From Escherichia phage vB_EcoM_G8, in sequence record NC_054915.1: a DNA stretch of 64,000 bases; one strand, given 5' to 3'. Every line of letters begins with the position of its first letter. The first letter of the stretch is position 1. The notes under the pieces are model-generated. The model was not told the DNA's origin and searched no databases. It was given only the letters and a program-made list of their open reading frames with translations. A program made the translations under genes and the position numbers. Below, piece by piece: positions 4,604-18,093 of the stretch.

Positions 4604-4977
4604 TTAAATTTAATGGCTTGAAGAAGACTAATAACTCTCAAGCGGCTTCTTTCATCTTTAACTGTAAAGGAAAGAGGGTCACCAGATTTCATAGTGATAG
4701 TGCATTCAAAATCAAAATCTTCAGGAACTTCTTCGAAGAAGTCAAATTCTTCATCATAAATTAGAACATTACTTTGAAAACTGTGAAGAATTTTTCCATC
4801 ATTTCCAGATGCTGTACTAATCATTGTAACATTATTACCTTTCATATCTTCAACGATAAATTCGCTTGTAGATATTACAGCATTAATAGAACCATTCCTA
4901 TAAATAGCAGACATTAGATATTTCTTTTCTTCGCCTTCGCGAATACGATACTTCTTACCGATTTTAAACATAATCAC
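4600..4977 (-). CDS. hypothetical protein
   Basis: 125-aa ORF, start/stop overlap with neighbours typical of T4 early operons. Confidence 0.5.
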   Translation of the reverse strand: MIMFKIGKKYRIREGEEKKYLMSAIYRNGSINAVISTSEFIVEDMKGNNVTMISTASGNDGKILHSFQSNVLIYDEEFDFFEEVPEDFDFECTITMKSGDPLSFTVKDERSRLRVISLLQAIKFK

Positions 4978-5150
4978 CCTTTAAGTAAGTCGTAAAAACC
5001 ACCATTCACATGCTTAGGAGCGGAAACTAACCGAATAGCAATCCGATGACAATCAGGACATACATCAGTATCCCTTTCAGAAATTTTCTTGATTTTTTCG
5101 TATTCTTTTGCGCAGTCTTTGGATTGACATTTATAATCATAAAGAGGCAT
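4974..5150 (-). CDS. FmdB-type zinc-ribbon small protein (58 aa), not in supplied ORF track
   Basis: hand translation MPLYDYKCQSKDCAKEYEKIKKISERDTDVCPDCH...; two CxxC pairs; coordinates approximate. Confidence 0.5.
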   Translation of the reverse strand: MPLYDYKCQSKDCAKEYEKIKKISERDTDVCPDCHRIAIRLVSAPKHVNGGFYDLLKG

Positions 5151-5152
5151 AA

Positions 5153-5572
5153 TTATTCCTTAAAGTGAGCTTTCAACATCTGATACAAGGACCATGCTTG
5201 TTCATTATTTTCAATAGTAACTTTCATTACCGGGAATTCTGTGAAATCTTCTATTTGTTCTTGCTCTTCCTGCTCTTGTTCTTCAGCAGCCTGATATGGA
5301 TTTTCAACTTCATCAAAGAACCCAGCTTCGTTAGTAGAGAGCCAGATAAAGTTTTCGTCAAGGATATCACCGCCGGCACAACGTTTGAGTACACCTATGG
5401 ATGTCATAATTTTAGTAGGACGCCCAAGATAATCAGCATCTAAAATTTTAAAAGGCTCCATACCTAAACGTCGCGCATAAATTCCGTTATCAGTATGGTC
5501 TTTAATAAAATTTTCTTGAGCTTGTTTATTTTTAAATTGATACCATTTATTAACTTCAAATTTAATAGCCAT
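5153..5572 (-). CDS. hypothetical protein with acidic EQ-rich segment
   Basis: 139-aa ORF. Confidence 0.55.
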
Positions 5573-15018: not shown

Positions 15019-15189
15019 ATCAGTCTTCAATGAAAACTTGTGCCAGGAATTCGTGTTCATCTTGAATTTGTTTATATAAAGCCATTACAGCATTTATATT
15101 AGAGCTATCTACTTTAAGTTGATAAGCATACCACTCGTATAAATTAATTAAAGCTTTTTGACGTCTAATAAATTCTTCTTTGGATATTT

Positions 15190-15402
15190 TCATTTTGAAT
15201 GCTCTATAATTAATTTTAAGGCTTCTTCACTGACAAAAATTTCATCAGGACCTTCTTCTACAACCCAATCAACCCAATCAACCGTACGAAGCTGATTAGA
15301 TAAGAGCTCACATACGAGCTCTTTGTCATAATCTTTAAATAGCTGGTTAATACGTTTCTTGCGGGCTTTCTTAAGTTGGCGTTTATTTAAACGAGCCATC
15401 AA
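15190..15402 (-). CDS. hypothetical basic small protein
   Basis: 70-aa ORF. Confidence 0.5.
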   Translation of the reverse strand: MMARLNKRQLKKARKKRINQLFKDYDKELVCELLSNQLRTVDWVDWVVEEGPDEIFVSEEALKLIIEHSK

Positions 15403-15977: not shown

Positions 15978-16766
<789 letters not shown>

Positions 16767-16867
16767 TCATTTATTGCAGCAAAAATGAATTATACAATTC
16801 TTCATCATATGTATTTGATAGTAATACTAACACGTTTTGCGATAAATATTAATTTAAAGGAGGACAT

Positions 16868-17068
16868 ATGGTACAAAAATTAATGGCACTTGTTAATGCC
16901 ATAAAAGGTAATAAAAAGCGTATAGCTTTTACTATTTCTGCTATGATAGGAATTTTACTTTGGAATTTTGTTTTATCGCCAGTTGCTATTGCTCATGGCG
17001 TTAGTATTCCAGTAGTTACTCTTGATACATTCGTAGATTTAGCATTTGCTTTAGTTGGGTTAATTTAA
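16868..17068 (+). CDS. small hydrophobic membrane protein on the opposite strand
   Basis: 66-aa ORF with strong RBS aaaggagg 5 nt before ATG; no competing minus-strand ORF in 16758-17064; two predicted TM segments. Confidence 0.5.
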   Translation: MVQKLMALVNAIKGNKKRIAFTISAMIGILLWNFVLSPVAIAHGVSIPVVTLDTFVDLAFALVGLI

Positions 17069-18093
17069 ATCTTAGCATATTTAGATAACCGCATTTTAGC
17101 CATCAACCCCTGGGAAATATTATTTTTCATATATTCCATAATTTGTTCAGGGGTTGCACCTTCCTTTCTAATCATATCATTAACATCTTTTGATTTCCAG
17201 GGGGATTTATCCCAAAACATAACCCTTTCTCCTGCATCAACTAATTTAGTCATTCGCTTAATAGTATCAGGATGACGAGGTTCATTATCTAAAACCCACA
17301 CTCGTCTATCTTTAAATGGAACAACTTCTAGGTCTAATTGACCACCTGTAATAGCTATACCATTTTCAATAAAAAGTGAATCTATAGGTCCTTCTAGAAC
17401 ATATACATCACCATCTTTAACTCGTTCGACTCCATAGATTTTTGTTGCCTCAGGATAAGCTTTGATGGTGATATATTTTTGAGGAGCATCTTTCTTTAAT
17501 GCACGTCCTTGAAAAGACTCAGCTTTTCCATTAGCATTATAAATTGGAATAACAAGACGAGGCTCAGAAATTTCCTTTTTGTATGTTCCCGGTGCTATGC
17601 TATTAACTAATTTAGGCCATTCGGTTGTAAACCAAAGATATTTCCATTTATCCTTTGGAATACAACGAGCTTTTACATATTTTATAATTGGATGATCTTC
17701 CGCCAGTTTATCTAATCTAACACATGACGGAAGAGATTTAATTATTTTCTTCTCGGGTTGTTTAGGAAGTTCTTTAGGTTTTTCTACTGGACGACTTTTA
17801 CCTTTTTCTTTTCTTATTTCAAAGATATACTCACGATATAAATCAGGTTCAAACTCCTTTAAATATATTCCGATTGGTGCATGATAGTTACAGTTATAAC
17901 AATGAATATTTCCTTCATTATTATCACCATAATACCATCCACGGGCTTTATTTTGGTCGGTTTTTGAATCTCCACACACTGGGCATCTAAACCGCAATTT
18001 AAAGGTTGAACTATTATTTACTTGTGTGAATTTAGGTAAATGAGCTAATGCACGGTATGCAAACTCATTATCAATCCAAGGTATTGATGACAT
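17065..18093 (-). CDS. 61: DNA primase gp61
   Basis: 342-aa ORF; zinc-ribbon CPVCGDS...CYNC plus Toprim-like region; T4 gp61 length. Confidence 0.95.
   Translation of the reverse strand: MSSIPWIDNEFAYRALAHLPKFTQVNNSSTFKLRFRCPVCGDSKTDQNKARGWYYGDNNEGNIHCYNCNYHAPIGIYLKEFEPDLYREYIFEIRKEKGKSRPVEKPKELPKQPEKKIIKSLPSCVRLDKLAEDHPIIKYVKARCIPKDKWKYLWFTTEWPKLVNSIAPGTYKKEISEPRLVIPIYNANGKAESFQGRALKKDAPQKYITIKAYPEATKIYGVERVKDGDVYVLEGPIDSLFIENGIAITGGQLDLEVVPFKDRRVWVLDNEPRHPDTIKRMTKLVDAGERVMFWDKSPWKSKDVNDMIRKEGATPEQIMEYMKNNISQGLMAKMRLSKYAKI

What the first reader, a model, noticed from the sequence alone, without database searches (positions are those of the whole stretch)
16868..17068. Only well-supported plus-strand gene: a 66-aa membrane protein converging on primase gene 61
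In a 64-kb window otherwise coded on the minus strand, this ORF has a near-perfect RBS, two hydrophobic helices, and occupies a 300-nt gap with no minus-strand ORF. Its stop overlaps the gene 61 stop. Small opposite-strand membrane proteins in phages are often toxic or regulatory.
Basis: seen in the sequence. Interest (0 to 1): 0.45.

Follow-up and report, generated by a model that had tools for sequence, protein, structure and literature searches.

The report
Conserved late small membrane-protein gene (dam.1)
The plus-strand ORF is a real, conserved T4-family gene for a 66-residue inner-membrane protein, probably switched on late in infection; many phage records already list it as a hypothetical protein, the T4 reference annotation omits it, and nobody knows what it does.

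Summary
Window 16868-17068 (+) is an intact 66-codon ORF with an AAGGAGG ribosome-binding site. It lies in the 307-nt dam/gene 61 gap, and its stop overlaps the primase stop by 4 nt. It is the only credible plus-strand gene in the 64 kb.

It is a real gene. About 690 T4-like records carry it, always converging on gene 61, in at least seven Tevenvirinae genera. dN/dS is about 0.12-0.15 within Tequatrovirus. Between genera synonymous sites are saturated, yet W32, N33, P38 and G44 are invariant.

It matches PHROG 2024 (unknown function). It is called dam.1 in RB55 and RB69ORF029w in RB69. T4 carries it intact, but the T4 reference annotation omits it.

Two points are new here:
- A T4 late-promoter core (ATAAATA, or TAAATA in two genera) sits 13-20 nt upstream of the ATG in every genus examined. 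This heptamer is five-fold depleted in the window.
- The protein has one confident membrane helix (residues ~19-42), not two. The N-terminus is basic and probably cytoplasmic. The C-terminal tail is short and acidic.

The "holin" labels in a few records fail the tests I could run. Function is unknown. My best guess is a late inner-membrane modulator of envelope events.

The parts
16841..16848 (+). Late-promoter-like box GATAAATA (T4 consensus TATAAATA at -13 to -6). The predicted transcript start is near 16854, giving a leader of about 14 nt.
   Evidence: Sequence. An ATAAATA or TAAATA core sits 13-20 nt upstream of the ATG in all genera although the flanks have diverged. ATAAATA occurs 8 times in the window against 41.7 +/- 7.6 expected. 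Five of the 8 copies precede an SD plus ORF, including soc, gene 49 and rI.-1/rI. The consensus and its tolerated -13 variants come from PMC2988020 and PMC1524935.
16857..16863 (+). Shine-Dalgarno sequence AAGGAGG, 4 nt before the ATG (6 nt in T4).
   Evidence: A GGAGG or GGAG is kept in every ortholog.
16868..17068 (+). Coding sequence of the 66-aa protein (dam.1 / RB69ORF029w / PHROG 2024 family), stop codon included.
16868..16921 (+). Residues 1-18: basic amphipathic N-terminal segment (five K/R, no D/E), predicted to be cytoplasmic.
   Evidence: Charge count and hydrophobic moment. AF2 helix 2-12. The cytoplasmic location follows from the positive-inside rule and is an inference.
16922..16993 (+). 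Residues 19-42: the single confident transmembrane helix. It carries the invariant W32-N33 and P38.
   Evidence: TMHMM places a TM at 21-41 in RB69ORF029w.
16994..17065 (+). Residues 43-66: conserved loop (G44, P48, V50), then a short acidic amphipathic helix (52-63). Predicted to be periplasmic or at the membrane interface.
16873..16902 (-). Terminator-like hairpin (16902..16883) followed by a T-run on the minus strand, inside codons 6-12 of the ORF. It is a candidate intrinsic terminator for gene 61 transcripts ahead of dam.
   Evidence: dG is -8.9 kcal/mol, z = -2.1. The same site is annotated as a rho-independent terminator in phage SA21RB. Non-homologous hairpins lie at a similar place in Gelderlandvirus and Moonvirus, but none in four other genera.
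17065..18093 (-). Gene 61 (DNA primase), convergent with the ORF. The two stop codons overlap by 4 nt.
   Evidence: The same convergent arrangement occurs in seven genera.
15978..16757 (-). dam (DNA adenine methyltransferase), the variable left-hand neighbour.
   Evidence: dam is absent in the Mosigvirus, Gaprivervirus, Kanagawavirus, Jiaodavirus, Gelderlandvirus and Moonvirus loci examined, which still keep the ORF.

Best explanation
This is a genuine protein-coding gene of the T-even phage lineage, named dam.1 in RB55 and RB69ORF029w in RB69.

Expression (inferred): it is most likely transcribed only late in infection. Host RNA polymerase carrying the phage late factors gp55/gp33/gp45 would start from a variant late promoter (GATAAATA) about 14 nt upstream of a strong ribosome-binding site. 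This explains why the gene can sit on the opposite strand inside an early/middle minus-strand region.

Product (inferred): a 66-residue single-pass inner-membrane protein.
- A basic N-terminal helix stays in the cytoplasm.
- One transmembrane helix carries an invariant Trp-Asn pair and a Pro.
- A conserved Gly/Pro loop and a short acidic helix lie on the periplasmic side.

Mechanism (inferred): I think it works by helix-helix contact inside the membrane, through the invariant polar Asn. The partner would be a phage or host inner-membrane protein, and the effect would be on an envelope event of the late period. My rough split among roles is:
- blocking genome entry of superinfecting phages, about 0.2;
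- tuning lysis timing or lysis inhibition, about 0.15;
- a membrane-bound assembly step, about 0.15;
- something else for the remainder.

Side effect (inferred): there is no room for a terminator between the two convergent genes. The late transcript must therefore run antisense into primase gene 61.

Shown here: the ORF, the RBS, purifying selection, synteny, motif conservation and hydrophobicity. Inferred: late timing, topology, partner binding and biological role.
For: Coding:
- tblastn finds the protein in 696 phage records, 684 of them at 80% coverage or more.
- T4 itself has it intact.
- Window versus T4 shows 9 synonymous and 4 conservative changes, dN/dS 0.12.
- Within three genera, second codon positions vary least (2, 0 and 3 sites). 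The annotated frame gives the most synonymous-only codons in Tequatrovirus and Mosigvirus.
- Between genera dS is saturated and dN is about 0.4. W32, N33, P38 and G44 are invariant, and P48 nearly so.
- The protein matches PHROG 2024 over its full length, E = 8e-31.

Synteny:
- The ORF is on the plus strand and abuts the 3' end of gene 61 in Tequatro-, Mosig-, Gapriver-, Kanagawa-, Jiaoda-, Gelderland- and Moonvirus.
- The other neighbour varies.

Late promoter:
- An ATAAATA or TAAATA core lies 13-20 nt upstream of the ATG in all lineages. One lineage (Q7622) has a perfect TATAAATA.
- The heptamer is five-fold depleted in the window.
- The composite pattern ATAAATA-N-GGAG-N-ATG hits only soc and this ORF, 2 matches against 0.18 expected.
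- The other copies of the heptamer that are followed by an SD and ORF precede soc, gene 49 and rI.-1/rI. From my own knowledge these are late-expressed genes.
- Position -13 is the most variable position of the consensus, and late transcripts run in either polarity (PMC2988020, PMC1524935).

Membrane protein:
- Hydrophobicity and charge asymmetry.
- AF2 helices at 2-12, 16-42 and 52-63, mean pLDDT 78.
- A published TMHMM result for the RB69 ortholog.

Function independent of primase:
- Distant homologs (hhalign probability 97%, E = 3e-11) lie inside tail-gene clusters of siphovirus-like contigs, on the same strand as the structural genes.
Against: - No transcript, ribosome or peptide data could be examined. 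The T4 omics papers I checked do not mention this region.
- The late box deviates from consensus: G at -13 in T4 and the window, and ATTAAATA (two deviations) in Gelderlandvirus and Moonvirus.
- The HMM late-promoter list for RB69 in Nolan et al. 2006 has no site upstream of RB69ORF029w.
- Topology and the number of membrane spans are predictions. The motif P38-x-A40-x-A42 could instead be a signal-peptidase site.
- Nothing links the protein to a partner. It matches no Pfam, NCBIfam, PADLOC or PDB entry.
- One record (T4_ev240) has a frameshift in the ORF, so the gene may be dispensable in the laboratory.
Confidence: 0.8

Rival explanations
1. It is a holin or pinholin. This is how a few records label it: 'holin family protein' in EAWsc9, 'putative holin' in KP1079, and UniRef 'Holin' for OE5505. 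On this reading it forms the lethal membrane lesion that releases endolysin.
For: It is small, has a transmembrane helix and is probably late. Three database labels say holin. Weak structural matches (E > 5) to two proteins named holin appear in BFVD.
Against: None of 29 family members matches any Pfam family at E below 0.03, and no match at all is to a holin family. The C-terminus is hydrophobic and acidic, whereas the typical holin has a charged hydrophilic tail; here the charged segment is N-terminal. No genus examined has an endolysin or spanin gene next to it. From my own knowledge, T4 already has an essential holin, gpt, whose loss abolishes lysis. The structural matches are not significant.
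Confidence: 0.07
2. The main product is RNA rather than protein. On this reading the late plus-strand promoter exists to drive antisense transcription through primase gene 61, or to collide with early transcription, so that gene 61 expression falls late in infection. The peptide would be secondary.
For: The stop codons overlap, so no terminator can separate the convergent genes. No plus-strand terminator is predicted until 21256. Two other genera have annotated plus-strand terminators just beyond the 5' end of gene 61. The gene converges on gene 61 in every Tevenvirinae genome examined.
Against: The peptide is under clear purifying selection and has invariant residues. A strong SD is kept everywhere. 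Distant homologs occur with no primase nearby. Antisense regulation could be an added effect but cannot explain the protein conservation.
Confidence: 0.1
3. The first 42 residues are a cleavable Sec signal peptide. The active product would then be a 24-residue hydrophobic, acidic peptide released at the periplasmic face.
For: The layout resembles a signal peptide: a basic n-region, a hydrophobic core, then P38-x-A40-x-A42 before H43. This pattern is kept as P-x-A-x-[A/T/S] in most members. That reading is my own interpretation of the alignment.
Against: The hydrophobic core is about 20-23 residues, which is signal-anchor length. The strongest conservation (W32, N33) lies inside it, which is unusual for a discarded signal peptide. 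SignalP gave no signal peptide for RB69ORF029w in Nolan et al. 2006.
Confidence: 0.1
4. It is not a gene. On this reading the open frame is accidental, and the conservation reflects overlapping cis elements: the gene 61 terminator, the dam promoter and the 3' end of primase.
For: A minus-strand terminator-like hairpin does lie inside codons 6-12. The T4 reference annotation lists no gene here.
Against: The hairpin covers only 20 nt and is absent in four genera that keep the ORF. dam is absent in six genera that keep the ORF. The codon-position pattern, dN/dS and amino-acid motifs kept despite saturated synonymous sites all point to translation. The frame is intact in 684 of 696 records.
Confidence: 0.03

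Closest known systems
PHROG 2024, also annotated as RB69ORF029w (RB69), RB32ORF030w (RB14) and 'dam.1' (RB55): hypothetical proteins of T4-like phages
   Same: It is the same family. The HMM match covers the full length (E = 8e-31). The members share size, convergent position at the 3' end of gene 61, and the motif W-N-x4-P-x5-G-x3-P.
   Different: Nothing substantive differs. The window copy is 100% identical in protein to JEP6_140. No function is attached to the family, and I found no paper that names it.
T4 late genes embedded in the early region behind a TATAAATA box (soc, the late start of gene 49, rI.-1/rI)
   Same: The architecture is the same: a late box, a short leader, an SD and an ATG. 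These are nearly the only places where the depleted ATAAATA heptamer survives in the window.
   Different: Those genes lie on the minus strand and have consensus boxes with T or A at -13. This one is on the plus strand and has G at -13. Its late expression has not been demonstrated.
T4 Imm, and from my own knowledge HK97 gp15: small inner-membrane proteins that block genome entry of superinfecting phage
   Same: They are small phage-encoded inner-membrane proteins. In the distant siphovirus-like homologs, the gene sits among or after tail genes. From my own knowledge, exclusion morons such as HK97 gene 15 sit in that kind of position.
   Different: There is no sequence relationship to Imm (hhalign probability 0.1%). 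From my own knowledge Imm is an early gene with two membrane spans. No exclusion phenotype has been tested. This is a guess about how it might work, not a claim of family membership.
Small holins and pinholins (for example the class II S21 type)
   Same: They are of similar size, are membrane-embedded and are probably late-expressed.
   Different: This protein has no holin family match, no charged C-terminal tail and no adjacent lysis genes. T4 has its own holin. See the membership test.

Membership tests
PHROG 2024 / dam.1 / RB69ORF029w family | Full-length match to the family profile | tested here: met
   phrog_2024 matches with E = 8.1e-31, protein residues 2-66 against profile positions 1-65 of 65.
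PHROG 2024 / dam.1 / RB69ORF029w family | 60-75 residues with the conserved core W-N-[FLY]-x3-P-x5-G-x3-P | tested here: met
   W32, N33, P38 and G44 are invariant, and P48 and V50 nearly invariant, in a 29-sequence alignment. The core is kept in more distant members.
PHROG 2024 / dam.1 / RB69ORF029w family | Plus-strand position converging on the 3' end of primase gene 61 in Tevenvirinae | tested here: met
T4 late genes (gp55/gp33/gp45-dependent) | TATAAATA box at -13 to -6, closely upstream of the gene | tested here: met
   GATAAATA lies at 16841-16848. It has a single deviation, at the least conserved position (-13). The ATAAATA/TAAATA core is conserved across genera, and the variants are described in PMC2988020 and PMC1524935. 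Caveat: the RB69 site is not in the published RB69 late-promoter list.
T4 late genes (gp55/gp33/gp45-dependent) | Transcript appears late and depends on genes 55, 33, 45 and DNA replication | not testable with these tools
   No expression data are accessible. The papers I checked do not cover this ORF.
Holins | At least one transmembrane domain in a small protein | tested here: met
Holins | Sequence membership in a described holin family | tested here: not met
   The window protein has no Pfam or NCBIfam match. None of the 29 members matches a holin family.
Holins | Charged, hydrophilic C-terminal cytoplasmic tail | tested here: not met
   The C-terminus is ...FALVGLI, with no K/R after residue 18 and two Asp. 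The basic cluster is N-terminal.
Holins | Encoded in a lysis cassette beside an endolysin or spanin gene | tested here: not met
   The neighbours are dam, gene 56, homing endonucleases and primase in all seven genera.
Holins | Forms lethal membrane lesions that release endolysin | not testable with these tools
   This needs an expression and lysis assay.
Type I toxin-like small membrane toxins | Match to a known toxin family | tested here: not met
   The only hit is one of 29 members to Ldr_toxin at E = 0.1, which is not significant. PADLOC gives no hit.
Superinfection-exclusion inner-membrane proteins (T4 Imm) | Homology to Imm | tested here: not met
   hhalign probability is 0.1% against the window's own Imm.

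The most novel reading that the evidence does not exclude
dam.1 is a component of T-even late envelope control that classical genetics missed. One form of this is a late-acting inner-membrane factor that blocks entry of superinfecting genomes. Another is a factor that tunes the holin/antiholin clock through its invariant Trp-Asn transmembrane face. In either case its convergent late transcription would also silence primase gene 61 by antisense RNA once structural gene expression starts.
Probability: 0.15. Interest if true: 0.6.

Novelty: already known. Interest (0 to 1): 0.3.

Why it matters
T4 is the reference organism for its whole phage family, yet its reference annotation (NC_000866, AF158101) leaves this 310-nt stretch empty. 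Proteomic and transcriptomic tables, and knock-down screens built on that gene list, are therefore likely to miss a gene that selection has kept across at least seven genera.

Adding it to the T4 gene list is a cheap correction. So is flagging it as probably late and membrane-bound. Small late membrane proteins are candidates for lysis timing, superinfection exclusion or membrane-linked assembly, so a simple knockout could be informative. Its position also gives a clean natural case of convergent early versus late transcription over an essential replication gene.

As a discovery the value is modest. The ORF is already in public records as a hypothetical protein, and nothing here reveals a new kind of system.

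Tried and rejected
Family searches: Pfam, NCBIfam and PADLOC gave nothing for the window protein. Pfam on all 29 aligned members gave only insignificant single hits. A profile search of PDB sequences gave nothing below E = 0.29.

Structure: a Foldseek search of the AF2 model against viral structures returned only the protein's own family plus noise. A helical hairpin of this size is too simple for fold search to inform.

Literature: searches for 'dam.1', RB69ORF029w, RB32ORF030w, phrog_2024, T4 ribosome profiling, unannotated ORFs and antisense late transcripts found no paper dealing with this ORF. Miller et al. 2003 (PMC150520) is not held. Two T4 omics papers do not mention the region.

Rejected readings:
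- I tested the holin labels against the holin hallmarks and rejected them.
- Homology to T4 Imm was rejected.
- I considered whether the minus-strand terminator hairpin alone explains the conservation. It does not: it spans 20 nt and is lineage-specific.

Other points:
- The published RB69 late-promoter list has no site for the ortholog. I count this as evidence against late expression, not as a refutation.
- My first hairpin scan was too strict and missed the window's own hairpin. I repeated it with looser rules.
- A tblastn search with one distant metagenomic homolog (P0133) found nothing in cultured phages.

Full report
WHAT IS THERE. The window is a T4-like (Tequatrovirus) genome segment. 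Gene 56, dam, gene 61, 61.1, 61.2 and sp are all recognisable on the minus strand. The window is colinear with phage JEP6 at 93-98% identity.

Between the start of dam (16757) and the stop of primase gene 61 (17065) lies a 307-nt gap. It has no minus-strand ORF of 30 aa or more. On the plus strand it holds an ATG-initiated 66-codon ORF at 16868-17068. AAGGAGG lies at 16857-16863. The ORF's TAA (17066-68) and the primase TAA (17065-67 on the other strand) share a palindromic TTTAAA, so the two genes overlap by 4 nt.

In JEP6's 64-kb equivalent, the ortholog JEP6_140 is the only plus-strand CDS. In the window, only three plus-strand ORFs of 45 aa or more lie mostly outside minus-strand ORFs, and only this one has a Shine-Dalgarno sequence.

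IS IT A GENE? Yes.

tblastn finds the protein in 696 phage records, 684 of them at 80% coverage or more. About 500 records are 80-100% identical and 195 are below 60%.

T4 itself carries an intact 66-codon copy (L001 3239-3439, which is T4 17738-17938). Neither NC_000866.4 nor AF158101.6 annotates anything between dam and 61.

Window versus T4 shows 13 substitutions in the ORF: 9 synonymous and 4 conservative, dN/dS 0.12. Other within-genus pairs give 0.12-0.22 in Tequatrovirus and 0.16 in Mosigvirus. Across eight Tequatrovirus, four Mosigvirus and four Gaprivervirus sequences, second codon positions vary least (2, 0 and 3 sites). The annotated frame gives the most synonymous-only codons in Tequatrovirus and Mosigvirus, compared with the five control frames.

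Between genera synonymous sites are saturated while dN is about 0.4. A 29-sequence alignment keeps M1, W32, N33, P38 and G44 invariant, and P48 and V50 nearly so.

The protein matches PHROG 2024 ('unknown function') over its full length at E = 8e-31.

An exhaustive HMM search of 1.84 billion cluster representatives finds only 17 clusters, all 33-70 aa. The family is real but narrow.

CONTEXT IN RELATIVES. In every Tevenvirinae genus examined, the gene is on the plus strand and converges on the 3' end of gene 61. The stop-stop overlap is usually 4 nt. The genera are:
- Tequatrovirus;
- Mosigvirus, including RB69, where it is RB69ORF029w;
- Gaprivervirus;
- Kanagawavirus;
- Jiaodavirus;
- Gelderlandvirus;
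- Moonvirus.

The other neighbour varies: dam, gene 56, a homing endonuclease or a MazG-like gene. The RB55 record names the gene 'dam.1'. VR26 and VR25 carry two diverged tandem copies.

More distant homologs also exist (P0131 and P0142; hhalign probability 97%, E = 3e-11; phrog_2024 E = 6e-11). They sit in siphovirus-like contigs with no primase nearby. The order there is a J-like tail-tip gene, a 94-aa TM plus coiled-coil protein and an endonuclease VII, then the homolog and two small ORFs. After those comes either a serine recombinase or a tail chaperone and tape-measure gene. The protein's job therefore does not depend on gene 61.

WHY A PLUS-STRAND GENE IN AN EARLY REGION? In the window and in T4, the octamer GATAAATA (16841-16848) lies 8 nt upstream of the SD. 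The T4 late promoter is TATAAATA at -13 to -6 (PMC1524935). Of 50 listed T4 sites, 32 are perfect, nine have A at -13, and the rest carry single deviations apart from two exceptions. Late transcripts run in either polarity (PMC2988020). Position -13 is poorly conserved in T4 relatives.

The upstream regions of the orthologs have diverged beyond recognition. Each still keeps the core at the same distance from the ATG:
- AATAAATA in Mosigvirus and a second Tequatrovirus type;
- CATAAATA in Gaprivervirus, Jiaodavirus, KLB31 and L016;
- a perfect TATAAATA in Q7622;
- ATTAAATA in Gelderlandvirus and Moonvirus.

ATAAATA is five-fold depleted in the window, 8 copies against 41.7 +/- 7.6 expected. Five of the 8 copies are followed by an SD, an ATG and an ORF. 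These are soc, gene 49, a 258-aa ORF, rI.-1/rI and this ORF. From my own knowledge, soc, 49 and rI have late promoters.

The composite pattern ATAAATA-N(8-22)-GGAG-N(4-10)-ATG hits only soc and this ORF, 2 matches against 0.18 expected. No sigma-70-like promoter better than chance lies upstream on the plus strand.

I therefore infer a late gene whose transcript starts near 16854 with a leader of about 14 nt. There are caveats. No expression data were available. The RB69 ortholog's box is absent from the published HMM list of RB69 late promoters.

THE PROTEIN. Residues 1-18 carry five K/R and no acidic residue. Residues 19-42 are the only segment with a membrane-insertion score near zero (simple-sum Hessa +0.4 kcal/mol). 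The C-terminal 18 residues contain D53 and D57 and score about +4.3.

AlphaFold2 with the 29-sequence alignment gives helices at 2-12, 16-42 and 52-63, with a loop at 43-51. Mean pLDDT is 78. Nolan et al. 2006 reported one TMHMM helix (21-41) and no signal peptide for RB69ORF029w.

By the positive-inside rule the N-terminus is cytoplasmic, and the acidic tail is periplasmic or at the interface. This is an inference.

The invariant residues cluster at the outer half of the membrane helix (W32, N33, P38) and in the loop (G44, P48). A conserved acidic residue follows at position 53. A conserved Asn inside a transmembrane helix commonly mediates helix-helix association. This is general knowledge and was not tested here. 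It is why I favour action through a membrane partner.

An alternative reading of P38-x-A40-x-A42 is a signal-peptidase site. I cannot exclude it, but the long hydrophobic core and the conservation inside it make it less likely.

OVERLAPPING ELEMENTS. On the minus strand, a hairpin at 16902..16883 plus a T-run lies inside codons 6-12. Its dG is -8.9 kcal/mol with z = -2.1. Phage SA21RB annotates the same site as a rho-independent terminator. It is a plausible terminator for gene 61 transcripts ahead of dam.

Non-homologous hairpins occupy a similar place in Gelderlandvirus and Moonvirus. Four other genera have none. The hairpin is therefore a lineage-specific overlay and not the reason for the conservation.

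On the plus strand, no terminator-like site is predicted before 21256. A late transcript should therefore run antisense into gene 61. In Moon and KLB31, the annotators placed plus-strand terminators just beyond the 5' end of gene 61. Antisense down-regulation of primase late in infection is thus a possible side effect. It is unproven.

WHAT IT IS NOT. Three records call the protein a holin. It has a TM helix. However, it matches no holin family in any of 29 members. It lacks the charged C-terminal tail. It is never next to lysis genes. I do not file it as a holin.

It has no similarity to the window's own Imm, to PADLOC defence models or to any solved structure. Fold search was uninformative.

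VERDICT. The finding is real and correctly located. It is a conserved, probably late-expressed, single-pass inner-membrane protein gene of T-even phages.

As an ORF it is already known: it is in hundreds of records, in PHROG 2024, and carries names in RB55 and RB69. Its function is unknown, and I found no paper that discusses it.

This analysis adds the following:
- the gene's absence from the T4 reference annotation;
- the conserved late-promoter box;
- the corrected topology;
- the embedded minus-strand terminator;
- the tandem paralogs;
- the primase-independent distant homologs.

Interest is modest at 0.3. It would rise if a knockout showed a role in lysis timing, exclusion or assembly.

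Noticed in passing
L029 4260-6082 and L030 4260-9097 (Logan contigs SRR23468712_11944 and SRR25820363_22495): Distant homologs of the ORF (69 aa, at 5001-5210) sit in siphovirus-like contigs. They follow a J-like tail-tip gene, a 94-aa TM plus coiled-coil protein and an endonuclease VII. The endonuclease VII DNA is about 68% identical to that of a Proteus T4-like phage. The endonuclease VII plus small-membrane-protein pair may therefore have moved between phage types.
   Followed up: partly
window, whole 64 kb; copies at 4900+, 15018-, 16842+, 18460+, 43948-, 46014-, 56927-, 61415+: The late-promoter core ATAAATA is five-fold depleted (8 copies against about 42 expected). All four minus-strand copies precede an SD plus ORF: soc, gene 49, a 258-aa ORF and rI.-1/rI. 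Three plus-strand copies (4900, 18460, 61415) have no ORF behind them and could drive late antisense RNAs.
   Followed up: partly
L004 1995-2401 (VR26), L013 (VR25), L015, L005 2193-2310: Gaprivervirus phages carry two diverged tandem paralogs of the gene, type A then type B. The second copy is truncated in L015. In EAWsc9 it is reduced to a 118-nt remnant gap. Kanagawavirus and many Klebsiella phages keep only a type-B-like copy.
   Followed up: partly
L021 372-917 (phage T2, LC348380 16006-16551): T2-type phages have an extra 546-nt minus-strand ORF (T2_032, hypothetical protein) inserted between dam and the small ORF. This splits the DNA match into two pieces in about half of the Tequatrovirus records.
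   Followed up: no
L028 (T4_ev240, LR597657) about 450; window equivalent 16914-16918: A one-base deletion in the A-run of codons 16-17 frameshifts the ORF in this record, and the annotated CDS is shortened to 41 aa. This could be a homopolymer sequencing error or a real loss in a laboratory-evolved phage.
   Followed up: no
window 15020-15193 (-): The window lacks the homing endonuclease gene segF that T4 has between soc and gene 56. A 57-aa ORF occupies the place, as in JEP6 (JEP6_137).
   Followed up: no
window 16785-16883 (+): A 32-codon ATG ORF (MNYTILHH...) overlaps the late box and the start of the main ORF. It has no SD. In T4 it differs in length (37 aa) because of the 2-nt indel. It is most likely not a gene.
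   Followed up: partly
L018 and L027 (JEP6, MT764206): Many JEP6 product names look like mis-transferred automatic labels. Examples are 'molybdenum ABC transporter' for the modA.x ORFs, runs of 'thioredoxin' for the nrdC.x ORFs, and 'DNA primase/helicase' for both gene 61 and gene 41. Product names from such records, including 'holin' for this family, should not be trusted.
   Followed up: no
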